A stretch of DNA of 64,000 bases from Planctomycetota bacterium. GTDB lineage: Bacteria; Planctomycetota; Planctomycetia; Planctomycetales; Planctomycetaceae. Each line of letters begins with the position of its first letter. Positions within the stretch are counted from its first letter, which is position 1. The position numbers and the translations under genes are program-made. The notes below the pieces were generated by a model. That model was not told the DNA's origin. It made no database searches and was given only the letters and a program-made list of their open reading frames with translations. The stretch is taken from positions 223 through 64,222 of the forward strand of contig CAVOEV010000001.1 of NCBI GenBank assembly GCA_963694825.1, written 5' to 3'. Below are positions 2,877-46,840 of the stretch, one piece after another.

Positions 2877-2990
2877 GTGCGATTGGTGGTAGGTGTCTTG
2901 TTTTTAACCGGGTCATCGGAACCATTCAACCAACGTCGTGGATCAGCGGCGTATCGAGTGTCGGCAGAGCCGAGGGGAAGAAGGACGAGT

Positions 2991-3770
2991 ATGCAGGGAT
3001 TGTCGGGTCGTGTGGCGTTGGTGACCGGAGCGGGTCGTGGGATCGGTCGGGCCATTTGTCTGGCTTACGGTTTAGCGGGAGCGAAGGTAGCGGTTTCGGC
3101 TCGATCCGAGGACGAATTGGAGTCGCTTGTCGGTGAGATTCGTTCGGCGGGTGGTACGGCCGAGTCGTTTCCAGCGGACCTGACCGATCCTGATGTGCCG
3201 GCGACGTTGCTGGCCGCGATCGAGTCGTCTTTGGGTAGTGTCGAGGTGTTGGTGAACAATGCCGGAGTCGGCAGCAGCTCGGATCCTCGGCCACTGGTCG
3301 ATTTCGACGACGACTTTTGGGCATTGACTCTTGCGGTGAATCTGACTGCACCATACCGGCTGACGAAGCTGTCATTGCCGTCGATGATTGAATCGGGTTG
3401 GGGCCGAGTGATCACCGTGGCGTCGATCAATAGTCGGATCGGCAGTTTTCACGGTGCGGCTTATGCGGCGAGCAAGCACGGCGTGTTGGGCCTGATGCGT
3501 ACGGCCGCGTCGGAGACGGCGTCGTTGGGAGTGACGGTCAACTGCATCTGTCCGGGTCCGGTACGAACATTGATGAACGACAAGCGGATCGCCTACGACG
3601 CCGATCGGTTGGGCCGGGTGTTGGATGAGCACGAATCGGGTTTGACTCCGATTGGCGGTCGTCTGGATCCGGAGGACATTGCCCCGATGGCGGTCTACCT
3701 GGCGAGCGACGCCGGCCGAATGATCACAGGCCAGGCCTACAACATCTGCGGCGGCGTCAACATGGCGTAG
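2991..3770 (+). CDS. SDR family oxidoreductase (FabG-like 3-oxoacyl reductase)
   Basis: The ORF track lists 2607..3770. The Rossmann motif MQGLSGRVALVTGAGRGIGRA begins at ATG 2991, preceded by GAAGGACGAG. The YxxxK motif (YAASKHG) is present. The upstream part of the ORF is antisense to the FhcC-like gene. Confidence 0.9.
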   Translation: MQGLSGRVALVTGAGRGIGRAICLAYGLAGAKVAVSARSEDELESLVGEIRSAGGTAESFPADLTDPDVPATLLAAIESSLGSVEVLVNNAGVGSSSDPRPLVDFDDDFWALTLAVNLTAPYRLTKLSLPSMIESGWGRVITVASINSRIGSFHGAAYAASKHGVLGLMRTAASETASLGVTVNCICPGPVRTLMNDKRIAYDADRLGRVLDEHESGLTPIGGRLDPEDIAPMAVYLASDAGRMITGQAYNICGGVNMA

Positions 3771-26443: not shown

Positions 26444-26944
26444 ATGCGTGTGATGTTCTGGGCACGTGGGCGAGCGAGGTTCAGTGATATTTTAGCAGCG
26501 ACCCTTTTGGGGCTGCTGGTGTTGGTGTTTGCGGGGTCGGTTACTGCCCAGGACGGTAAGGCGTCCGAACCACCTGCTGCCGCGGCCGCGGCTGCGACTG
26601 ACGCGGTTGCCGATGGCGAAGCGGCGGGCGAAGTGTCCGAGCCGCCGTCGTTGTCGGGTATGGCTGTGCCGATCATCGGCATGGGTTTGATCTTCTACTT
26701 CATCGTACTGCGTCCTCAGAAGAAGGCTCGAAAGAAACAAGAGGCGTTGGTCGAGTCTTTGAAGAAGCACGACCGTGTGGTGACCATCGGCGGCATCGTG
26801 GGGACGATCATTTCGATCGACACGGACAACGAAGAGGTGGTGTTGGAGGTTGGGCCAGACACTCAATTGAGACTGTTGCGTCGTAGCATCCAGGGTCCCA
26901 AGCCGTTCGGCAGTGATGTCGATTCGGATTCGGGCCTTAGTTAG
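26444..26944 (+). CDS. yajC: Preprotein translocase subunit YajC with an N-terminal signal-peptide/acidic extension
   Basis: YajC core IIGMGLIFYFIVLRPQKKARKKQEALVESLKKHDRVVTIGGIVGTI, preceded by about 70 extra residues (hydrophobic leader plus Ala/Glu/Asp-rich linker). Confidence 0.85.
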   Translation: MRVMFWARGRARFSDILAATLLGLLVLVFAGSVTAQDGKASEPPAAAAAAATDAVADGEAAGEVSEPPSLSGMAVPIIGMGLIFYFIVLRPQKKARKKQEALVESLKKHDRVVTIGGIVGTIISIDTDNEEVVLEVGPDTQLRLLRRSIQGPKPFGSDVDSDSGLS

Positions 26945-27023: not shown

Positions 27024-27878
27024 ATGAACGAACTCGGATTGCTGCGGATCTTGGCCGAGATTCCTGCTTGGGGGACGGGTCTGGGGTTTGTGGCTGCGGT
27101 GATTGGCGGAATTCTGGTTTCGCGGCGGTTGTCGGTTCGCGAGGAGTTTGCCGACAGTTATGTGACGATGGGCGTGCTGGGTTTTGGTGGCCTGATTGCC
27201 GTGGGGTCTCTTGTCCCCGGCCTGTTCTTCGATCTGGAGAACGGTACGCGGTTCCTGTTGGGGCTGGGCGTGGTCTTGATCGGTCTGGGCATCTGGATGT
27301 TTTCGCGAGAAATGTTACCGGGCCGACTGGTGGCCGTGCTCTGCCTGTTGTACGTGGCGATCGTGGCAACGGTGTATTGTCTGCAGCCGCAGTGGTATTT
27401 CGACAGTGGTGACGGGACGCGAGCCATCCTGTTGATTTCGGCGACGTTCGTGGTGCCTTTGAGCCTGGGTCGATTGCTGGCGATGGCATTACGGATGGAG
27501 GACCTGACGTTTCGCTTGGGTTTTGTGCTGACGGCGATCACGCTGGCCCTGTGGCCGATGGCCAAAGAAGTGGTCGCTCGAGCCGCGGAGAACTGGGTGC
27601 ACGAAGAAGCCGAGAAGAAGTGGGACGCGGGGACCAAGTCGTATCCGGTCACGGCCGAGATCAAGGAAACTCTGGGTCGAGTTCGTCCGAAGCTGACGGT
27701 TCACTATCTGTCGGACGGAAAGAGTTCGGATAGGGTGAAGCCGGCGAGTCGGCCGAGTACGATTGGTGAGCCGGCTGAGAAACCGGCTGAGAAACCGGCT
27801 GAGAAACCGGCTGAGAAACCAGCTGAGAAACCAGCTGAGAAACCGGCTGAGAAACCGGCTGAAACGGGCACGAAGTGA
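27024..27878 (+). CDS. Polytopic membrane protein (about 6 TM) with a C-terminal (PAEK)n repeat, function unknown
   Basis: 284-aa ORF between yajC and secDF. It has hydrophobic helices throughout its first 190 aa and a C-terminal EPAEKPAEKPAEK... tail. Confidence 0.65.
   Translation: MNELGLLRILAEIPAWGTGLGFVAAVIGGILVSRRLSVREEFADSYVTMGVLGFGGLIAVGSLVPGLFFDLENGTRFLLGLGVVLIGLGIWMFSREMLPGRLVAVLCLLYVAIVATVYCLQPQWYFDSGDGTRAILLISATFVVPLSLGRLLAMALRMEDLTFRLGFVLTAITLALWPMAKEVVARAAENWVHEEAEKKWDAGTKSYPVTAEIKETLGRVRPKLTVHYLSDGKSSDRVKPASRPSTIGEPAEKPAEKPAEKPAEKPAEKPAEKPAEKPAETGTK
27771..27866. repeat. 12-bp in-frame tandem repeat CC(G/A)GCTGAGAAA x7 plus a partial copy
   Basis: Read directly. It encodes (PAEK)7-8 at the 3' end of the 27024..27878 gene. 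Confidence 0.95.
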
Positions 27879-30800
27879 TGGTTGATCGAATGGTGAGTGG
27901 AATCACGATGAGCAAGTCGACCGGGAGTGGCGTGATGAGGAGTGTGTGGAGTCTGGCCTGTGTGCCGGCGTTGTTACTGGTGTTGTCGGTGTCGGGTTGC
28001 AGTGACACGGATCCGATGATCAAGTTGCGTCGTGCCGGTGCGGTGGTCGAGCAGGATGACGAGCGCGAGAAGATCGAGCGAGTGGTGTTGTCTCGTTCGG
28101 CAAGTCCGTCTCAGTTGGCCGAGCAGCTTACTGACCTGGCTCGGGTGTCTCGCGTGTTGGTGCTGGACCTTTCGGGGACTCGCATCACCGACGAGCAGTT
28201 GGGTGAATTGTCCGAGTTGGACGAACTGCACAGCTTAGATTTGTCGGACACGGCGATCACGAGTGCGGGGTTGTCGAACCTGTCGAAGCTGACGGGTTTG
28301 CGCAAGTTGACTCTTTCGAACACACTGGTGAACAATGCGGGTTTGGAGAAGCACATCCCGAGTTTTACGGCGTTGGAAACTTTGGAGTTGTCGAGATCAA
28401 AGCGTCCCGAGCGGGACATCGTGTCGGACGACGACGCGGGCCTGATCGAGACGATTTTTTCGGGCATCAATCTAGGCATTGATTTGGCTGGCGGAGCGAT
28501 TCTGATCCTGGAAGTGGACGAGGAGTTGCGTGCGAAGCAGGGCAAGGAGTTGACCGCCGACGTGATGTCTCAGATGGCCACCGCGATCAACAAGCGGGCC
28601 AACCCTGGCGGCAACAAGGAATTGACGGTTCGGCCGGTGGGTACGAACCGGATCGAGGTGATCATCCCCAAGGCGGACCCGCAGGTGGTCGAGCAGACCA
28701 AGCGGATGATGACGCGTCTGGGGAGTCTCGAGTTGGCGATCTTGGCCAATTCTCGAGACGCCAAGTTCCAGAACCTGGTCCAGAAGGCAGGGGCGTTGCC
28801 AGACGGCGAGACGCAGGTCATCGAGATTGTGGTGGACGGCGGTTCGAGTCGATCGCGACTGTTGGGTGAGTGGTTGCCGGTGGATCCCAATGGTGAGGTG
28901 GACAGCAGTTACGACGTGTTGGTCGAGCCGCGTGCGAACCTGAAGGGTGTGGAGGTCGAGCACGTATTGGTGTCGTACGAGGACGAGAACCTGCGTGTCA
29001 AGGGTGAGCATCTTTACCGTGTCTACCAGACCAACGACGACAACGGCCGGTTGGCGGTCGGTTTCACTCTGAACATTGGCGGTTCGAACCGCTTTGCCGA
29101 TTTGACCGGCAGCAACGAGCCGGACAAGTCCGAGGGGTTTTACCGTCGGTTGGCGATCATCCTGGACGGAAAGGTCTTTTCGGCGCCGACTCTTGAGAGT
29201 CGGATCAGCAGCAGCGGCATCATCCGAGGCGACTTCACTCGCCAGGAGATCAACGAGTTGATTGGTGTGCTTGAGGCGGGGGCATTGGAAGTGCCCTTGA
29301 AGCCCGAGCCGATCAGCGAGATGACAATTTCTCCGACACTTGGCGGCGACGTTCAGAGGAAGGGTGTGGTAGCGATCTCGATCGCATCGATCACAGTGGT
29401 TGTGTTCATGATCGGCTACTACCGTTTCTCGGGTGTTGTGGCCGTGATTTGTCTGATGTTGAACCTGGTGTTGGTGATGGGGACGATGATCTTCATCGAG
29501 GCGACCTTCACGTTGCCGGGCTTGGCCGGTTTGGTGCTGACTATCGGAATGGCAGTCGATGCGAACGTATTGATTTTCGAGCGGATCCGTGAGGAGCAGC
29601 GACGTGGTGGCGTGGTCCGAATGGCGATCCAGAACGGTTTCAACCGGGCGTTCACCACGATTGTCGACGCCAACGTGACCACGTTGTTGGTGGCGGTGGT
29701 GTTGTACATGATCGGCACTGATCAGGTTCGCGGTTTTGCGGTGACACTGTTCATCGGGATCGTGATGAGCATGTTCACGGCGTTGTTTGTGGGCCGGTTG
29801 TTGTTTGACATCTGGGAGCGGCTCAAGCATCGCGAGCAGTTGAAGATGAACAGTCTGCCGGGCATTACCGGTCGGGAGTTCAATTTTGTCGGGCGTCAGA
29901 AGATTGCCGCGGTGGTGTCGTTGATTGTGATCGTCTGCGGTATGACCGCCTTGTTTTCTCGGGGCGCGAGTAATTTCGATATCGATTTTCGTGGTGGTCG
30001 CGCGGTAAGTTTCGAGTTGTTGAGAACACCGGATGATGCGTCAACGGACACGGTTCGCGACAAGTTGCAGAGTGTCGAGGACGCGAAATCGCTGAGCGAT
30101 TCTATGTCGCTTGAGGAATTGACGGGGATCGGTGCAGATGACGCGGCGGTTGCGATCGATGGTCGGCGACGGTTTCGTTTGCGGACGACGACCACTCGGA
30201 CGTCCGGGGGCGACGGAGATACGGTCAACCAGCGTATCCAGAATTGGATCGCCTCGGCATTCGCTGCGGATTCGGAATACCAGTTGGCGACCATGTCTGT
30301 TCGTCCGGGTCCTGTTGCGGAAATCGACGATCCATTGGATGCGGATTACCACCAAGGGCACCAAGTCACCGTGTCGTTTTCGAGTGACGACAAGGTCGAG
30401 GTACAACGTGAGAACGTCCAGGCGTACGTGGCGGAGGCATTGGCTGGTGCGTTGGGCGGTGGGAGTGAGTCAGCGAAGGGTGACGCGGTTCAGGCCGAGT
30501 TGGAGTTCGAGATTTCAGCTGGCGGATCCGATCCGCTTGCGGCTCGATCCCTGATCTGGGCCGTGCGGTTCAAGAAGTCGATCACCGGTGCGACGATCGA
30601 GACGGCATTGGCCGGTATGGTTGCGAGTCTGGACGGTCAACCTCGTTTTGACGAGGTGACATCGTTCGACAGTGCTGTGGCGAACGAAATGCAGCAGTCA
30701 GCGATTTTGGCGATGCTGTTCAGCCTGGTGGCGATCGTGGCCTATATCTGGTTCCGTTTCCAGCGAATTGATTTCGGCTTGGCGGCGGTTGTGGCGTTGG

Positions 30801-31306
30801 TACACGACGTACTGGTTGTGTTGGGTGGTGTTGCACTGGCGGGTTTGGCGGCTTCGGAGATGGGGATGGACGGTGGCGTATTTCTGTTGCAGGACTTCAA
30901 GATCAACCTGCCGATGGTGGCCGCCTTCTTGACCATTGTCGGGTATTCGTTGAACGACACGATCGTCGTGTTTGACCGTATCCGCGAGGTGCGTGGCAAG
31001 AATCCCTCGTTGACGCCCGAGATGGTCAACCAGAGTCTGAACCAGACCTTGGCACGAACTCTGTTGACCTCACTGACCACATTGATCGTGGTCGTGATCC
31101 TGTACTTTGGAGGAGGAGACGGGATCCACGGTTTCGCCTTCTGCTTGGTGGTGGGCGTGGTGGTGGGAACCTACAGTTCGATCTTTGTGGCGAGTCCGGC
31201 GTTGCTTTGGATGATGAACCCGAACAGCCTGTTCAATCGTCTGGTCGGGAGTGCTCCGGGCGGGTCGAATGTTCGATCGAGGCAGGCGACGGCGACCGAG
31301 TCGTAG
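27875..31306 (+). CDS. secDF: Fused protein translocase subunit SecDF with an N-terminal lipoprotein-like leader and an LRR insert
   Basis: SecD P1 motif GINLGIDLAGGAILILEV, and two RND-like 6-TM bundles (SecD then SecF). Leader MRSVWSLACVPALLLVLSVSGC. LRR units at about aa 85-175. The start is GTG 27875 or ATG 27878, overlapping the previous stop. Confidence 0.9.
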   Translation: MMVDRMVSGITMSKSTGSGVMRSVWSLACVPALLLVLSVSGCSDTDPMIKLRRAGAVVEQDDEREKIERVVLSRSASPSQLAEQLTDLARVSRVLVLDLSGTRITDEQLGELSELDELHSLDLSDTAITSAGLSNLSKLTGLRKLTLSNTLVNNAGLEKHIPSFTALETLELSRSKRPERDIVSDDDAGLIETIFSGINLGIDLAGGAILILEVDEELRAKQGKELTADVMSQMATAINKRANPGGNKELTVRPVGTNRIEVIIPKADPQVVEQTKRMMTRLGSLELAILANSRDAKFQNLVQKAGALPDGETQVIEIVVDGGSSRSRLLGEWLPVDPNGEVDSSYDVLVEPRANLKGVEVEHVLVSYEDENLRVKGEHLYRVYQTNDDNGRLAVGFTLNIGGSNRFADLTGSNEPDKSEGFYRRLAIILDGKVFSAPTLESRISSSGIIRGDFTRQEINELIGVLEAGALEVPLKPEPISEMTISPTLGGDVQRKGVVAISIASITVVVFMIGYYRFSGVVAVICLMLNLVLVMGTMIFIEATFTLPGLAGLVLTIGMAVDANVLIFERIREEQRRGGVVRMAIQNGFNRAFTTIVDANVTTLLVAVVLYMIGTDQVRGFAVTLFIGIVMSMFTALFVGRLLFDIWERLKHREQLKMNSLPGITGREFNFVGRQKIAAVVSLIVIVCGMTALFSRGASNFDIDFRGGRAVSFELLRTPDDASTDTVRDKLQSVEDAKSLSDSMSLEELTGIGADDAAVAIDGRRRFRLRTTTTRTSGGDGDTVNQRIQNWIASAFAADSEYQLATMSVRPGPVAEIDDPLDADYHQGHQVTVSFSSDDKVEVQRENVQAYVAEALAGALGGGSESAKGDAVQAELEFEISAGGSDPLAARSLIWAVRFKKSITGATIETALAGMVASLDGQPRFDEVTSFDSAVANEMQQSAILAMLFSLVAIVAYIWFRFQRIDFGLAAVVALVHDVLVVLGGVALAGLAASEMGMDGGVFLLQDFKINLPMVAAFLTIVGYSLNDTIVVFDRIREVRGKNPSLTPEMVNQSLNQTLARTLLTSLTTLIVVVILYFGGGDGIHGFAFCLVVGVVVGTYSSIFVASPALLWMMNPNSLFNRLVGSAPGGSNVRSRQATATES

Positions 31307-43433: not shown

Positions 43434-44330
43434 ATGACGACACGAGTGGGGCAGGGGGAGTACCGTTACGAGGTGGTCAGTGATTGGGCGAAGTTGCCCG
43501 ATGGCTGGTCGTTTGGCTGGATTCCCAGTGTGGGGGTCGATAGTCGGGACCGGGTGATTGTTTCGAGTCGCAGCGAGCACACTTTGATCATCTTCGACAC
43601 GGACGGCAACGTGATCGAGTCGTGGGACGACACGGTGCTGGTGCCCGAGAACGCTCATGGGATCTACATTGACGTCGAGGACAACATTTACCTGACCGAG
43701 TGGTTGGGTCATTGCGTCTACAAGTTCAGTCCGGGCGGAGAGTTGCAGTGGACACTGGGGACTCCGGGTGTGCCTCGTCCGCCGGGCGTGCCATTCAACC
43801 GGCCGACCGATCTGGCAATTGCTCCGGACGGTTGTTTGTTTGTCAGCGACGGTTACGTGAATCACAAGGTGCACAAGTTTTCACCCGAGGGCGTGTTGAT
43901 CAAGAGTTGGGGCGAGCCGGGAAGCGGTCCGGGTCAGTTTGACCTGGTGCATTCGGTCTGGGTCGACAGCGATTATCGGGTGTACATCTGCGACCGCGAG
44001 AACAATCGGATTCAGTTGTTTGATGCCGAGGGTGAGTACCTGGACGAGTGGACGGGTTTTCTGCGTCCGGACAAGTTGTGGTTCGATTCGGACGAGACGA
44101 TTTTCATGGCCGAGATCGGCCCGCGGGTGACGATTTTGGATCGGCAGGGCAGTGTGTTGAGTCAGTGGGGGGAGGCGGGAGACGAGCCGCATCAGTTCAA
44201 ATCGTTTCCTCACGGCATCTGGGGTGACAGCCGCGGCGACCTGTACGTGAGCGAGGTGGCGGCCGACGGGTTGATCAAGAAGTTTGTCAGGGTGCGGGAC
44301 GAACTGGTGGCGGATTCAGTGGGTTGTTAG
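43434..44330 (+). CDS. NHL-repeat six-bladed beta-propeller protein (peptidyl-hydroxyglycine lyase-like)
   Basis: Repeated 'P..vavDs.g.iyV.Dr.N.RIq.Fd..G' units (for example YRVYICDRENNRIQLFDAEGEY). There is no signal peptide. Confidence 0.75.
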   Translation: MTTRVGQGEYRYEVVSDWAKLPDGWSFGWIPSVGVDSRDRVIVSSRSEHTLIIFDTDGNVIESWDDTVLVPENAHGIYIDVEDNIYLTEWLGHCVYKFSPGGELQWTLGTPGVPRPPGVPFNRPTDLAIAPDGCLFVSDGYVNHKVHKFSPEGVLIKSWGEPGSGPGQFDLVHSVWVDSDYRVYICDRENNRIQLFDAEGEYLDEWTGFLRPDKLWFDSDETIFMAEIGPRVTILDRQGSVLSQWGEAGDEPHQFKSFPHGIWGDSRGDLYVSEVAADGLIKKFVRVRDELVADSVGC

Positions 44331-45541
44331 TGGAGAACGCGGCATCCGTGGAAGCGTTGTCGCAGGCGAGAGGCGAGGTCGCTGGTGACCCGAGTGTTTT
44401 GGAGGTCGAGGCCTTTGAGGGCGGGCAGTTGGTTTCGGGCGAGTGGTTCGACCGAAGCATTGGTGATGCGGGTTCCGGAGAGTCTGAGGAACCGGAGGCG
44501 GGTGTGGACGTGGGAGCCGAGCAGTTTTTCGATTGCCCGGTCGTTGACGGCTCGACAGCCATCCAGCGAGACCAGTTCGAGTTGTGAGTTGTTGGCGAGG
44601 TCTTGAAGCAGTTGGGGGCCGGCGGCCGTCTGGTCGAGTTTGAGCTGGGTGAGATTGGGAAGAGTGGCGAGCACTGCGAGACCGTTGTCGGTCAACCGGC
44701 TGCAGTCGGAGAGGTCCAGTTCCGAGAGTGCGTCGGTGTGGTTGAGCAGTTCCTTGAGGCCTTGGTCGGTGATGGCGGTCCCGGCGGCGACGAGGTACTT
44801 GAGATCGGCGAGTTGGTGCAGGTGTCGGAAACCTCGATCGGTGATCCGTCGCGGTAGTTCGAGTCCCTGGAGTCCCTGGGCGTTGTGGAGTCTGAGCAGT
44901 CCTGCGTCGGTGATTTCGGTTCCCGAGAGTGCCAATTTGCGATTGCCGAGGACTCCGTGCGGCGAGTTGATCTGCAGAGTGTCGTGTTGACTCGAGAGGG
45001 CAATCAGAGCCGGGAGCGTGACGGTGGTGTCGAGGAGGCTGAGTTCTTCGAGGCTTTCGAATCTTGCCAGTGTGTCGAGTCCTTCATCGGTGACGTGGTA
45101 GGAGGAATTCAGGATCAGCGTGCCGAGTCGAGGCAGGTGAGCGAGGTGAGCCAGTCCGTCGTTGGTGACAGCGGTGCGAACCAGCGAGAGTCGTTTGAGT
45201 TGGGTGAGTTGTGCGAGGCGTTTGAGATCGTTGTCTGTGACGTTGGATTCGTCGAGCACGAGGTCTTCGAGTTGTGTGAGACGTGCGAGGCTGGCGACGG
45301 TGTTGGGTCCGAGTGTGGCACCGGAGAGCCGGATCCAGGAGGGATCATTGGTCCGGTCGTCGAAGATGGCTCCGGCCTGTTCGAGTTGTCTGAGGTCGTG
45401 TGAGCGTTGCCCGACGGACCAGGCGATCGAGCCGATGATGAGACTCGAGGTGATGGCGGCGGCGATCAGTAGCCGGTGTCCCAGGCGACTGCGTCGCGTC
45501 GTGGGTGGTGTGTTGGTCTTGGTGTGTGAGTGGTCGATCAT
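44327..45541 (-). CDS. Membrane-anchored leucine-rich repeat protein (RI-like LRRs)
   Basis: TM anchor LLIAAAITSSLIIGSIAW followed by about 12 units of the form L..L.L..T.VTD.GL..La.L. ATG 45541 was chosen; ATG 45616 is also possible. The 3' end overlaps the NHL gene by 4 nt. Confidence 0.7.
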   Translation of the reverse strand: MIDHSHTKTNTPPTTRRSRLGHRLLIAAAITSSLIIGSIAWSVGQRSHDLRQLEQAGAIFDDRTNDPSWIRLSGATLGPNTVASLARLTQLEDLVLDESNVTDNDLKRLAQLTQLKRLSLVRTAVTNDGLAHLAHLPRLGTLILNSSYHVTDEGLDTLARFESLEELSLLDTTVTLPALIALSSQHDTLQINSPHGVLGNRKLALSGTEITDAGLLRLHNAQGLQGLELPRRITDRGFRHLHQLADLKYLVAAGTAITDQGLKELLNHTDALSELDLSDCSRLTDNGLAVLATLPNLTQLKLDQTAAGPQLLQDLANNSQLELVSLDGCRAVNDRAIEKLLGSHVHTRLRFLRLSGTRITNASVEPLARNQLPALKGLDLQNTRVTSDLASRLRQRFHGCRVLH

Positions 45542-45715
45542 CACGGTCCAGACTAGCGGTCGCTGTGTCGGGCGGCCATGCCGCGATCCCCCTTGACAGG
45601 GGGCGCGTGACGTCATGTAATCCTCGCCTGAGGCTCGAGACGTCACGGCCAGGGGGGTGAGAATCCATCGACCGAGACCGACCGAGTTGGTTCTTGCGCC
45701 AGGAAGGCGGCTGCC

Positions 45716-46840
45716 GTGCTGACGACGTTTGACCGCTACCTGATGAAGCGGTATTTCCACGCCTTTTTCACCTGTTTCGTGGCGGCGTTGGGTGTATTTT
45801 TCGTTTTCGATGCGTTCACCAACGCCGACGAGTTTCAGAAAGTGAGTCCCGACGGTTCGGTGTGGCCAGTGGTCCGCCGGATGGCATTGTTCTATGCGTG
45901 CCAGTCGAGTCTGTTGTTGAGTCTAGTGGGTCACATGCTTTGCGTGCTGGCCGTGATGATCACATTGGTCGGAGTCCAACGGACTGGCGAACTTCATCCG
46001 TTGCTGGCCGCGGGTGTGCCCCTGTATCGCATCGTGTTGCCGTTGATCCTGGGTGTGGTCCTGATCAACGGGGCGATGATCGCCAACCAGGAGTGTCTTC
46101 TGCCTCGAGTGGCTCACGTCCTGCAGACTCCCAGGGGCCGCCAACTCGAGCAGGGCATCGACGTCCGGCCGTCGCTGGATTTTGCCAGTCACATATTGAT
46201 TTCCGCGAGGCGAGTATTTCCGTCTTCGTCTCGGTTGGTGGATGCCGAATTCGTGTTACCGGTTCCCGACGTGGTGACACGGCTGACCACATTGAAGGCT
46301 CGGCGGGCGAAGTACGTGGGTCGCGGTCCTCGAGGCCAATCGGGCTGGTTGCTGGCGGGGCTGGATCCGTCGGCGGAGACGTTGTTGTTGGGTGTGACCG
46401 GTCGCGAGGTACTGCGTCCGGGTCCTCGCCCAGGCACGCTGTTTCTTGTTTCGGGAGTCACTCCGGACCAGTTAGCGAAGAAGTCTGGCAGCGTGAAATT
46501 TTTGTCGACGCCCGAGTTGTTGCGTCGAATCCGCAACCCGTCGCAGGCCGCCCGAGCGGCTCACGAACAGTCGCTCGCCGTCCACGCCCGGTTGACCAGA
46601 CCACTGCTCAACATCGCCGCCGTTTTCCTGGCGATCCCGTTCCTGGTACGGCGTGAGAGTCGCGGTGTGGTGGCCAACCTGGCGATGGCGGGCATGGTGA
46701 TGCTGGCGTTGTTGGGTGCTGGCGAGGCGTGCCTGTACCTGGCCAGTTTCCAGGTCCTGTCTCCCGACGTCGCTGCCTGGTCGCCGGTGGTGGCTTGTGG
46801 AGTGGGAGCGACCTGGTGTGCACGGCAGGCTGAGACGTAG
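45716..46840 (+). CDS. LptF/LptG family LPS export permease
   Basis: MLTTFDRYLMKRYFHAFF N-terminus, 3+3 TM helices around a periplasmic beta-jellyroll region, GTG start. Confidence 0.8.
   Translation: MLTTFDRYLMKRYFHAFFTCFVAALGVFFVFDAFTNADEFQKVSPDGSVWPVVRRMALFYACQSSLLLSLVGHMLCVLAVMITLVGVQRTGELHPLLAAGVPLYRIVLPLILGVVLINGAMIANQECLLPRVAHVLQTPRGRQLEQGIDVRPSLDFASHILISARRVFPSSSRLVDAEFVLPVPDVVTRLTTLKARRAKYVGRGPRGQSGWLLAGLDPSAETLLLGVTGREVLRPGPRPGTLFLVSGVTPDQLAKKSGSVKFLSTPELLRRIRNPSQAARAAHEQSLAVHARLTRPLLNIAAVFLAIPFLVRRESRGVVANLAMAGMVMLALLGAGEACLYLASFQVLSPDVAAWSPVVACGVGATWCARQAET

What the first reader, a model, noticed from the sequence alone, without database searches (positions are those of the whole stretch)
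28127..28400. Leucine-rich-repeat module inserted between the N-terminal anchor and the P1 domain of SecD
The 1143-aa SecDF starts with a lipoprotein-like leader or TM helix (LLLVLSVSGC). It then carries about 4 RI-type LRR units (VLVLDLSGTRITDEQLGELSELDELHSLDLSDTAITSAGLSNLSKLTGLRKLTLSNTLVNNAGL...) before the canonical SecD GIDLAGG P1 entry. In ordinary SecD, TM1 leads directly into P1. This insert would therefore place a protein-binding LRR solenoid in the periplasm, next to the domain thought to pull substrates out of SecYEG. The LRR type matches the separate membrane-anchored LRR protein at 44327-45541.
Basis: partly seen in the sequence, partly recalled or inferred. Interest (0 to 1): 0.6.

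Follow-up and report, generated by a model that had tools for sequence, protein, structure and literature searches.

The report
SecD split by an inserted LRR gene
In this planctomycete a small leucine-rich-repeat lipoprotein gene landed inside the protein-export gene secDF in rearranged order and cut it into two genes, each keeping one piece of the repeat domain; the two pieces probably snap together outside the membrane to rejoin the export machine.

Summary
ORF 27875-31306 is the genome's only SecDF. Between an N-terminal hydrophobic leader and the GIDLAGG entry of P1 it carries a real LRR module: an N-cap plus four 24-25-residue units.

The interpretation needs correcting. The leader is not SecD's own anchor. 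It is a lipoprotein signal peptide (invariant G-C lipobox) that arrived with the LRR. SecD's ancestral N-terminal TM hairpin, including canonical TM1, now sits on the separate upstream gene 27024-27878. A profile of that hairpin from sister genera hits only this ORF in the whole genome (E 2.6e-12).

After the hairpin, the upstream protein carries the missing C-terminal cap of the LRR. A free-standing 221-aa LRR lipoprotein from the same genus aligns colinearly: its N-cap and four repeats match the SecDF module (E 2e-32), and its last 22 residues match the end of the hairpin protein in a relative (E 2e-6). One LRR gene was therefore inserted in circularly permuted order, splitting secDF.

All 17 relatives' loci I examined, from 10 of at least 92 Planctomycetaceae genera, show the same split. 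A read-through pseudo-complex fold (pLDDT 81, pTM 0.70) places the cap at pLDDT 94-96. This suggests the two LRR halves reassemble and re-tether TM1. That last step is inferred, not shown.

The parts
26444..26944 (+). yajC, first gene of the yajC / hairpin gene / secDF block
   Evidence: Pfam YajC, 84.7 bits, aa 73-150.
27024..27878 (+). Upstream gene (284 aa). It encodes four clade-specific TMs, the ancestral SecD TM0-loop-TM1 hairpin, a linker helix, an LRR C-cap remnant and a PAEK repeat tail.
   Evidence: The hairpin HMM from 12 sister-genus SecDF N-termini hits only this ORF among 54,892 genome ORFs (47.7 bits, E 2.6e-12; next best E 0.91). There are 16 orthologous clusters, all 'hypothetical' with no Pfam domain.
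27423..27563 (+). TM0, cytoplasmic loop (ALRMEDLTFR) and TM1 hairpin (aa 134-180). It is homologous to the N-terminus of fused SecDF in sister genera.
   Evidence: hmmsearch alignment at aa 138-189. This is the most conserved segment of the protein (mean pairwise identity 0.76).
27639..27707 (+). Degenerate LRR C-terminal cap (aa 206-228, SYPVTAEIKETLGRVRPKLTVHY).
   Evidence: The spacing V0, T1, L8, P13, L15, V17 equals the canonical cap TxVTxxGVxxLxxxLPxCxI. hhalign of the tails against the genome's own LRR C-termini gives P 1.1e-4 in the correct register. The orthologous tails in G067, G086 and G220 are significant caps (34.0, 20.3 and 18.1 bits). Conservation is 0.56, against 0.35 for the sequence after it.
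27771..27862 (+). 12-bp tandem repeat (7.7 copies) encoding (PAEK)n at the end of the upstream protein.
   Evidence: TRF score 170. It is absent or different in relatives.
27875..31306 (+). LRR-SecDF ORF (1143 aa from GTG; likely start ATG 27908 or 27935). It is the only SecDF in the genome.
27935..28000 (+). Lipoprotein-type signal peptide MRSVWSLACVPALLLVLSVSG|C, with the lipobox Cys at aa 42.
   Evidence: G-C is invariant in every relative's LRR-SecDF whose N-terminus was recovered. The same SP+GC(S/G)xxDP start is seen on free-standing LRR lipoproteins. LspA is present in the genome.
28001..28153 (+). LRR N-terminal cap (aa 43-93; DPMIKLRRAGAVVEQDDEREKIERVVL...).
   Evidence: Aligns with the N-cap of the free-standing LRR lipoprotein (DPVAALKKLGATIKQNEQGEVVEVSL). 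AF2 gives strands at 57-60 and 67-71.
28154..28393 (+). Three full LRR units of 24-25 aa plus a final bare beta-strand LETLELS (aa 94-173). There is no C-cap.
   Evidence: Read directly from the sequence. AF2 strands at 94-98, 120-122, 144-148 and 169-173 alternate with helices. phmmer hits 20 genomic LRR paralogues.
28394..28495 (+). Linker (aa 174-197) and SecD GG motif (INLGIDLAGG), where the ancestral SecD sequence resumes.
   Evidence: Pfam Sec_GG at 195-216. Relatives' SecDF matches start at aa ~191-198.
44327..45760 (-). Free-standing membrane-anchored LRR paralogue with an intact C-cap (…TRVTSDLASRLRQRFHGCRVLH*).
   Evidence: (E 1.3e-13).

Best explanation
**What happened.** An ancestral Planctomycetaceae SecDF had the order TM0, loop, TM1, then GIDLAGG/P1 and so on. 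It was cut between TM1 and P1 by insertion of a small LRR lipoprotein gene in circularly permuted order. The inserted order was: last half-repeat/C-cap, stop, short spacer, start, lipoprotein signal peptide, N-cap, four LRR units.

**The two genes that resulted.**
1. 27024-27878 encodes SecD's TM hairpin, followed in the periplasm by a linker helix and the LRR C-cap.
2. 27875-31306 encodes a lipoprotein signal peptide, an uncapped LRR, and then the rest of SecDF (P1, TM2-12, P4).

**Proposed working.** Both proteins insert co-translationally from one operon. The SecDF N-terminus is exported and probably lipidated at Cys42 and cleaved. In the periplasm the cap on the hairpin protein completes the open end of the LRR on SecDF. 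This brings TM1 back to its place beside the TM2-12 bundle and P1, so a normal proton-driven 12-TM SecDF is rebuilt from two chains.

**Shown and inferred.**
- Shown: the fission, the permuted LRR origin and their conservation.
- Inferred: lipidation, reassembly in trans and function.
- The concave LRR face may in addition bind something, but nothing here speaks to that.
For: **Ancestral state**
- 12 sister genera and two other families carry the TM0-loop-TM1 hairpin directly before GIDLAGG.

**Fission**
- The hairpin profile hits only the upstream ORF in the whole genome (E 2.6e-12).
- It also hits a separate upstream ORF in all 17 relatives' loci checked, at 31-81 bits.
- The two ORFs differ in frame or are separated by one or more stops in every genome. 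A sequencing error is therefore excluded.

**Permutation**
- A free-standing 221-aa LRR lipoprotein of the same genus aligns aa 77-198 to the SecDF module (48% identity, E 2e-32). Its last 22 aa align to the last 22 aa of the G067 hairpin protein (59% identity, E 2e-6). The break falls exactly after the beta-strand LxxLxL.
- A cap HMM trained only on this genome's LRR C-termini scores the tails of G067 at 34 bits (E 3.6e-8 at Z=54,892), G086 at 20 bits and G220 at 18 bits.
- hhalign for the window's clade gives P 1.1e-4.

**Lipoprotein leader**
- The G-C lipobox is invariant in every relative's SecDF N-terminus recovered.
- LspA is present.

**Reassembly**
- I folded a natural read-through chain from G067, where the two genes are in frame across one TAG. 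Mean pLDDT is 81 and pTM is 0.70.
- The cap segment has pLDDT 94-96, with a helix and a DSSP beta-strand at 48-50 that needs a partner strand.
- The translated spacer and signal peptide lie below pLDDT 50-65.
- A pTM of 0.70 over 274 residues cannot be reached unless the 52-residue tail is rigid with the ~150-residue LRR.
- In the window's clade the cap-like segment is more conserved (0.56) than the sequence after it (0.35).

**Housekeeping role**
- This is the sole SecDF in a 96.5%-complete genome.
- The conserved motifs GMAVDANVLIFERIRE, SLNDTIVVFDRIRE and QTLARTLLTS are present in the sequence.
Against: - No coordinates or PAE were available, so cap-to-LRR docking is inferred from pLDDT, DSSP and pTM. 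It was not seen.
- The fold used a relative (G067), not the window's own pair.
- The window clade's cap is degenerate. It scores no better than 9.8 bits with the cap HMM, and the window's own tail gives no hit.
- The full-length window model is poor (pLDDT 47) and says nothing about where any TM1 sits.
- Lipidation and cleavage are predicted from sequence only.
- On the SecDF-core tree the split state needs at least 3 changes, and monophyly is only borderline acceptable (AU p 0.069). The history (one origin with reversions, cassette spread, or repeats of the event) is unresolved.
Confidence: 0.66

Rival explanations
1. The LRR is an added periplasmic protein-binding module on SecDF, placed next to P1 to capture substrates or a partner. 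The upstream protein is irrelevant to it.
For: - LRRs are generic protein-binding scaffolds (established knowledge).
- The module is kept in 10 genera, with four regular repeats and a free concave face.
- This role is compatible with the clasp model as an additional function.
Against: - The anchor is not SecD's TM1, and the LRR lacks its own C-cap, whose sequence lies on the upstream protein.
- The repeat residues are the family consensus (LDLSxTxITDxGL), with no lineage-specific conserved concave patch evident.
- No candidate ligand was identified.
Confidence: 0.15
2. After the fission the two proteins went separate ways. The uncleaved signal peptide, or a lipid anchor alone, replaces TM1, so SecDF works with the new N-terminus. 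The hairpin protein has a new, unrelated role and its cap is a decaying relic.
For: - In the window's clade the hairpin protein gained four extra TMs and a variable low-complexity tail, and its cap has drifted to 9.8 bits or less.
- The N-terminal segment of SecDF is hydrophobic enough to span the membrane (KD 2.06 over 19 aa).
Against: - The hairpin is the most conserved part of the upstream protein (0.76) and is still recognisable as the SecDF N-terminus (47.7 bits).
- The gene stays immediately upstream of secDF in all 17 relatives' loci.
- The cap positions V, T, L, P, L and V keep exact spacing and are invariant or nearly invariant within the clade.
- An invariant Gly-Cys at the end of the leader makes sense for lipoprotein processing, not for a plain TM helix.
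Confidence: 0.18
3. Artefact. The two ORFs are really one gene (frameshift or assembly error), or the LRR is a separate gene joined to secDF by an error.
For: The window comes from a fragmented assembly (426 contigs).
Against: - The same two-gene layout is found in 17 independently assembled relatives from 10 genera, with differing frames, spacers and stop codons.
- The LRR-P1 junction is in frame in all of them and in about 20 metagenomic protein clusters.
- A single chain would put the LRR and P1 on the wrong side of the membrane.
Confidence: 0.01

Closest known systems
Canonical SecDF (Thermus thermophilus / Bacillus-type fused SecDF; RND superfamily)
   Same: Two SecD_SecF_C membrane domains, the GG motif, P1 base and head, P4, and the conserved TM4 Asp and TM11 Arg motifs. 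It lies in an operon with yajC.
   Different: TM1 (with an extra TM0) is on a separate polypeptide. The main chain starts with a lipoprotein signal peptide and an uncapped LRR of ~130 aa before P1.
E. coli-type SecD + SecF (naturally two polypeptides)
   Same: It shows that SecDF tolerates being encoded as separate chains that assemble in the membrane (established knowledge).
   Different: There the cut lies between the two pseudo-symmetric halves (TM6 | TM7). Here it lies after TM1, inside the first half, and is bridged by pieces of a foreign domain.
Free-standing planctomycetal LRR lipoproteins (e.g. the 221-aa protein in L053 and the 315-aa one in L052; 20 paralogues in this genome)
   Same: Same signal peptide and lipobox, the same N-cap (DPxxxLxxxGAxV...), the same 24-aa repeat (LxxLxLxxTxITDxGLxxLxxLxx) and the same C-cap (ITDxGVxxLxxALPxCxIxx*).
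   Different: In those the parts are colinear on one chain. Here the cap is on one protein and the rest is on another, each welded to a piece of SecD.
Naturally split polytopic membrane proteins and insertional gene fission (Split-Doa10, PMC3464245; cox2a/cox2b, PMC5374615)
   Same: A membrane protein gene is cut into two complementary genes whose products are thought to reassemble. In cox2, the cut comes from inserted DNA.
   Different: In those cases the inserted DNA does not itself supply two halves of one foldable domain that could hold the fragments together.
RI / cysteine-containing (FBXL) / Legionella LegL-type LRRs
   Same: Beta-strand plus alpha-helix repeats. The closest solved folds are LegL1 4xa9 (rmsd 2.0 Å over 99 columns, 32% identity), 4q62, RI 1a4y and FBXL2 6o60.
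   Different: The period is 24-25 residues rather than 28-29 (RI) or 26 (CC), and the caps are bacterial.

Membership tests
SecDF (protein translocase subunit, RND superfamily) | Two SecD/SecF C-terminal membrane domains scoring above curated cut-offs | tested here: met
   PF02355 at 250 bits (cut-off 20.5), two stretches. TIGR01129 secD at 367 bits (244) and TIGR00966 SecF at 335 bits (160).
SecDF (protein translocase subunit, RND superfamily) | GG motif and P1 head domain | tested here: met
   PF07549 at 25.5 bits (20.3) at aa 195-216. PF22599 at 70 bits (27) at aa 372-473.
SecDF (protein translocase subunit, RND superfamily) | TM1 immediately preceding P1 on the same chain (12 TMs in SecDF, or 6+6 in SecD and SecF) | tested here: not met
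   The chain has 11 core TMs plus a lipoprotein-type leader. The homologue of TM1 is on the upstream ORF. The feature is met only if the two chains assemble.
SecDF (protein translocase subunit, RND superfamily) | Proton-pathway residues (TM4 Asp, TM10 Asp, TM11 Arg) | tested here: met
   GMAVD562ANVLIFERIRE, SLND1028TIVVFDRIRE and QTLAR1061TLLTS were read in the translation. Their assignment to the pathway rests on established knowledge of T. thermophilus and E. coli SecDF.
Leucine-rich repeat domain | Pfam LRR model above gathering score | tested here: not met
   Best hit is LRR_4 at 21.7 vs 27 bits; LRR_6 is 17.4 vs 23.4. Orthologues do carry precomputed PF12799/PF13516 hits.
Leucine-rich repeat domain | Tandem LxxLxLxx(N/T) units forming a beta/alpha solenoid; homology to bona fide LRR proteins | tested here: met
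   Units of 24, 24 and 25 aa on the sequence. 20 genomic LRR paralogues at E 6e-40 to 4e-7. AF2 solenoid at pLDDT 93-98 in the orthologue. Foldseek probability 1.00 to solved LRRs.
Leucine-rich repeat domain | N- and C-terminal caps shielding the hydrophobic core | tested here: inconclusive
   The N-cap is present on the SecDF chain. The C-cap is absent from it and is found on the upstream protein. Capping in trans is inferred from the pseudo-complex model.
RI-type LRR subclass | 28-29-residue repeats | tested here: not met
   The repeats are 24-25 residues (counted on the sequence). The fold class is RI/CC-like by Foldseek.
Bacterial lipoprotein | Signal peptide ending in a lipobox [LVI][ASTVI][GAS]C; Lgt/LspA machinery present | tested here: met
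   VSG|C in the window, and G-C is invariant in every relative's SecDF N-terminus recovered. Peptidase_A8 (LspA) scores 97 bits in the genome. Lgt was not searched.
Bacterial lipoprotein | Actual acylation and signal peptidase II cleavage | not testable with these tools
   Needs globomycin sensitivity, lipid labelling or mass spectrometry.

The most novel reading that the evidence does not exclude
This would be a natural case of 'self-healing' gene fission. A foldable repeat domain was inserted in circularly permuted order into an essential membrane machine. At the moment of the cut it supplied two halves with built-in affinity, the LRR body and its cap. These act as a periplasmic clasp that keeps the severed TM1 attached to SecDF. 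If so, the LRR is primarily an assembly device, and the arrangement is a ready-made natural split-LRR heterodimerisation pair.
Probability: 0.5. Interest if true: 0.8.

Novelty: new variant of a known kind. Interest (0 to 1): 0.68.

Why it matters
- SecDF is a conserved, well-studied accessory motor of protein export, and its TM1-to-P1 connection is normally unbroken.
- Here the only SecDF of the cell is built from two chains cut at that point, so the covalent TM1-P1 link is dispensable.
- The case also shows in sequence how such a cut can arise and be tolerated. A permuted domain insertion leaves complementary fragments of one fold on the two products.
- It offers a testable model for how gene fissions in polytopic membrane proteins survive.
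- It is a possible source of a small natural split-domain pair that works in the periplasm.
- It corrects annotation. The 'hypothetical' 6-TM protein between yajC and secDF in these genomes is part of SecD.

Tried and rejected
- **Full-length AF2 of the window protein** with 19 close orthologues gave a poor model (pLDDT 47). Only the LRR part was usable, and nothing could be said about TM packing.
- **First cap test.** The cap HMM against the 8 tails of the window's clade gave only 3.5-7.9 bits. It became convincing only after the second group of genera was fetched.
- **Alignment A3.** With unpaired tail rows, MAFFT slid the caps onto an internal LRR unit. I discarded it and used paired read-through rows instead (A4).
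- **Census of LRR-SecDF fusions.** I tried the 1.84-billion-protein representative library and a third homologue search. Both were swamped by long multi-repeat LRR proteins: 178,258 hits, with only two further fusions visible. They gave no usable count.
- **Tree and AU tests for a single origin** were inconclusive.
- **Promoter and terminator scan** of the junction found nothing above chance.
- **Programmed read-through or frameshift** joining the two ORFs was rejected. Frames and the number of stops differ among genomes, and a single chain would have the wrong topology.
- **P0051** (Singulisphaera, LRR plus ACR_tran) was looked at as a possible independent fusion. It is an LRR followed by an AcrB-like soluble domain, not a SecD.
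Full report
**1. What is at the coordinates**

The ORF 27875-31306 (+) is intact and is a SecDF fusion protein.
- NCBIfam secD covers aa 200-643 and SecF covers aa 822-1113.
- Pfam finds SecD_SecF_C twice, the P1 head at 372-473 and the GG motif at 195-216.
- It is the only SecDF homologue among all six-frame ORFs of the 96.5%-complete genome.
- It lies downstream of yajC (26444-26944) and of a 284-aa membrane protein gene (27024-27878).

Pfam LRR models score below their thresholds (best 21.7 vs 27 bits). Three other results establish that it is an LRR:
- The segment hits 20 other LRR ORFs of the same genome, at E 6e-40 to 4e-7.
- It folds as a regular strand/helix solenoid.
- The model matches solved LRRs at probability 1.00: LegL1, RI, NLRP1 and FBXL2.

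Its anatomy is an N-cap (aa ~43-93), three full units of 24, 24 and 25 residues, and a final bare beta-strand LETLELS. A ~24-aa linker then leads to INLGIDLAGG.

**2. The leader is not SecD's anchor**

I translated the SecDF loci of 27 relatives.
- In four other families of the class, a single TM1 runs straight into G(I/V)DLxGG. This is the textbook arrangement.
- In 12 other genera of the window's own family (Planctomycetaceae) and in two further families, the N-terminus is a hairpin. It consists of a hydrophobic helix, a basic loop L(K/R)(L/M)K(D/E)xxxR, and a second helix (canonical TM1), followed within ~10 residues by GIDLAGG.
- The window's SecDF has no such hairpin. The hairpin motif (…LLAMALRMEDLTFRLGFVLTAITLALWPMA…) is in the upstream ORF.

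A profile of the 12 sister hairpins tests this directly. It hits that ORF at aa 138-189 with 47.7 bits. Against all 54,892 six-frame ORFs of the genome this is E 2.6e-12, and the next hit has E 0.91. So canonical TM1 of SecD is now encoded by a different gene.

**3. The split is real and conserved**

A family-wide scan covered 398 genomes in at least 92 genera. SecDF with the leader+LRR in front of P1 occurs in about 22 genomes of 10 genera.

In all 17 relatives' loci I fetched, a separate ORF immediately upstream carries the hairpin, at 31-81 bits. The relative frame, the spacer length and the number and kind of stop codons differ between genomes. An assembly error or a conserved recoding event is therefore excluded.

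A single chain would also be topologically wrong. After TM1 (in to out), the next hydrophobic segment would return the LRR and P1 to the cytoplasm.

Other searches gave these results:
- A phylum-wide sample (401 genomes, 288 genera) showed no such fusion outside the family.
- The big protein collection holds about 20 clusters of the window's type, at most annotated 'SecDF'.
- It holds 16 clusters of the upstream protein, where named only 'hypothetical' and with no Pfam domain.
- Literature searches found no description.

**4. The LRR is itself split and came from one gene**

The SecDF leader ends in an invariant Gly-Cys lipobox followed by (S/G)xxDP in all genomes. This is the same start that free-standing LRR lipoproteins of these genomes have. 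LspA is present.

Those free-standing proteins end in a characteristic cap, TxVTxxGVxxLxxxLPxCxIxx*. The SecDF LRR has no cap. The tails of the upstream hairpin proteins do:
- G067: …FRVTDEGVAKLKKALPGCEIKR*
- G220: …GKITPAGIDALQEKLPEVVITR*
- G086: …SKVTDQGIEKLRQALPELQVIR…

A cap HMM trained only on 12 LRR C-termini of the window's genome scores these tails, with Z set to the whole genome's ORF count:

| Tail | Bits | E-value |
|---|---|---|
| G067 | 34.0 | 3.6e-8 |
| G086 | 20.3 | 8.5e-4 |
| G220 | 18.1 | 4e-3 |

The window's own tail (SYPVTAEIKETLGRVRPKLTVHY, aa 206-228) is a drifted version. It gives no significant HMM hit. It does keep the exact spacing V0-T1-L8-P13-L15-V17. The clade's tail profile aligns to the cap in the right register (hhalign P 1.1e-4). 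It is also better conserved than the sequence after it (0.56 vs 0.35).

The clearest single result is. A 221-aa LRR lipoprotein from another species of the window's genus aligns in two parts:
- aa 77-198 (N-cap plus four repeats, ending …LQWLTL) align to the SecDF module (48% identity, E 2e-32);
- aa 200-221 align to the last 22 residues of the hairpin protein (59% identity, E 2e-6).

One LRR gene therefore lies in the locus in the order cap-stop … start-SP-Ncap-LRR1-4, cut after the beta-strand of its last unit. That order is what a single crossover between secDF and a circularised or tandem copy of an LRR gene would produce. This mechanism is my inference.

**5. How it probably works**

I could not run a true complex prediction. 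In G067, however, the two genes are in the same frame with a single TAG between them. I folded the natural read-through chain: tail, stop, spacer, signal peptide, LRR, GG motif (274 aa). The alignment had five such paired rows plus 12 LRR rows.

The results were:
- Mean pLDDT is 81.1 and pTM is 0.70.
- The LRR has pLDDT 93-98.
- The cap (aa 31-51) has pLDDT 94-96, with a helix and a beta-strand at 48-50. DSSP only assigns a strand when a partner strand exists.
- The translated spacer and signal peptide are below pLDDT 50-65.
- With 204 confident residues out of 274, a pTM of 0.70 requires the 52-residue tail to be rigidly placed relative to the LRR.

I had no coordinates, so docking onto the open end of the solenoid is inferred, not observed.

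The model I favour has these steps:
1. The hairpin protein and the lipoprotein-LRR-SecDF are made from one operon.
2. The cap completes the LRR in the periplasm.
3. This holds TM1 next to P1 and the TM2-12 bundle, restoring a 12-TM SecDF.

Because both fragments came from one fold, they would have had affinity at the moment of insertion. That would explain how a cut in the cell's only SecDF survived.

**6. What remains open**

- On SecDF-core trees the split state needs 2 changes in the 28-taxon tree. In the 37-taxon tree it needs 4 changes, of which at least 3 are forced by well-supported branches.
- The window's genus plus one other form a basal clade. Most other carriers form a second clade, and two carriers sit next to fused forms.
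- Monophyly is not clearly rejected (AU p 0.31 with 28 taxa and 0.069 with 37).
- One origin with later re-fusions, spread of the cassette by recombination, and repeated events cannot be told apart here.
- In the window's clade the hairpin protein has gained four N-terminal TMs and a (PAEK)n tail (12-bp repeat, 27771-27862). Their meaning is unknown.

**7. Verdict**

It misses the main point, which is an insertional fission of SecD by a circularly permuted LRR lipoprotein gene.

This is a new variant of a known machine. Its anatomy and origin are well supported. The assembly mechanism is plausible but unproven.

Noticed in passing
L020 (G017) and L021 (G010), between TM1 and GIDLAGG: Two other genera of the family carry an unrelated ~100-aa in-frame insert (…YAYKTPTGVWVSAPDVQEKTDP…) at the same TM1/P1 junction, without fission. 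This site looks like a hot spot for insertions in planctomycetal SecDF.
   Followed up: no
L016, L027, L028, L029 (G016, G031, G036, G026): In some fused SecDFs a signal-peptide-like segment and a long acidic or Pro/Ala-rich low-complexity stretch precede TM0. The extra N-terminal helix TM0 (N-out topology) seems general in several Planctomycetia families and is not part of textbook SecD.
   Followed up: partly
window 26444-26944: YajC has ~70 extra N-terminal residues, a hydrophobic leader and an Ala/Glu/Asp-rich linker, ahead of the Pfam YajC core (aa 73-150).
   Followed up: no
window 27771-27862: A perfect-looking 12-bp tandem repeat (7.7 copies, 97% matches) encodes (PAEK)n at the 3' end of the hairpin gene. 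Its length and sequence differ among close relatives, so it is probably a fast-evolving or slippage-prone tail.
   Followed up: partly
P0051 (Singulisphaera rosea, 815 aa): An LRR protein of the same repeat type is fused to an AcrB-like periplasmic (ACR_tran) domain without the membrane part. This is another LRR / RND-piece combination in Planctomycetota.
   Followed up: partly
G008:C6:61990-62751: One genome of the window's genus has a second SecD-like ORF (957 aa open frame, 51% identical to aa 277-536), i.e. a possible SecDF paralogue that is absent from the window's genome.
   Followed up: no
own genome, 20 ORFs (e.g. C94:11362-14532, C211:5043-7238, C31:739-2079): There is a large family of lipoprotein or membrane-anchored LRR proteins with the same 24-aa repeat, N-cap and Cys-containing C-cap. 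In the public collections the repeat type is fused to Ser/Thr kinases, BlaR1-type peptidases, sigma-70 factors and WD40 proteins.
   Followed up: partly
L038 (G007) 2884-3438: A masked or unresolved run (translated as X) interrupts the LRR-coding part of secDF in this assembly. This explains the split match for G007.
   Followed up: no
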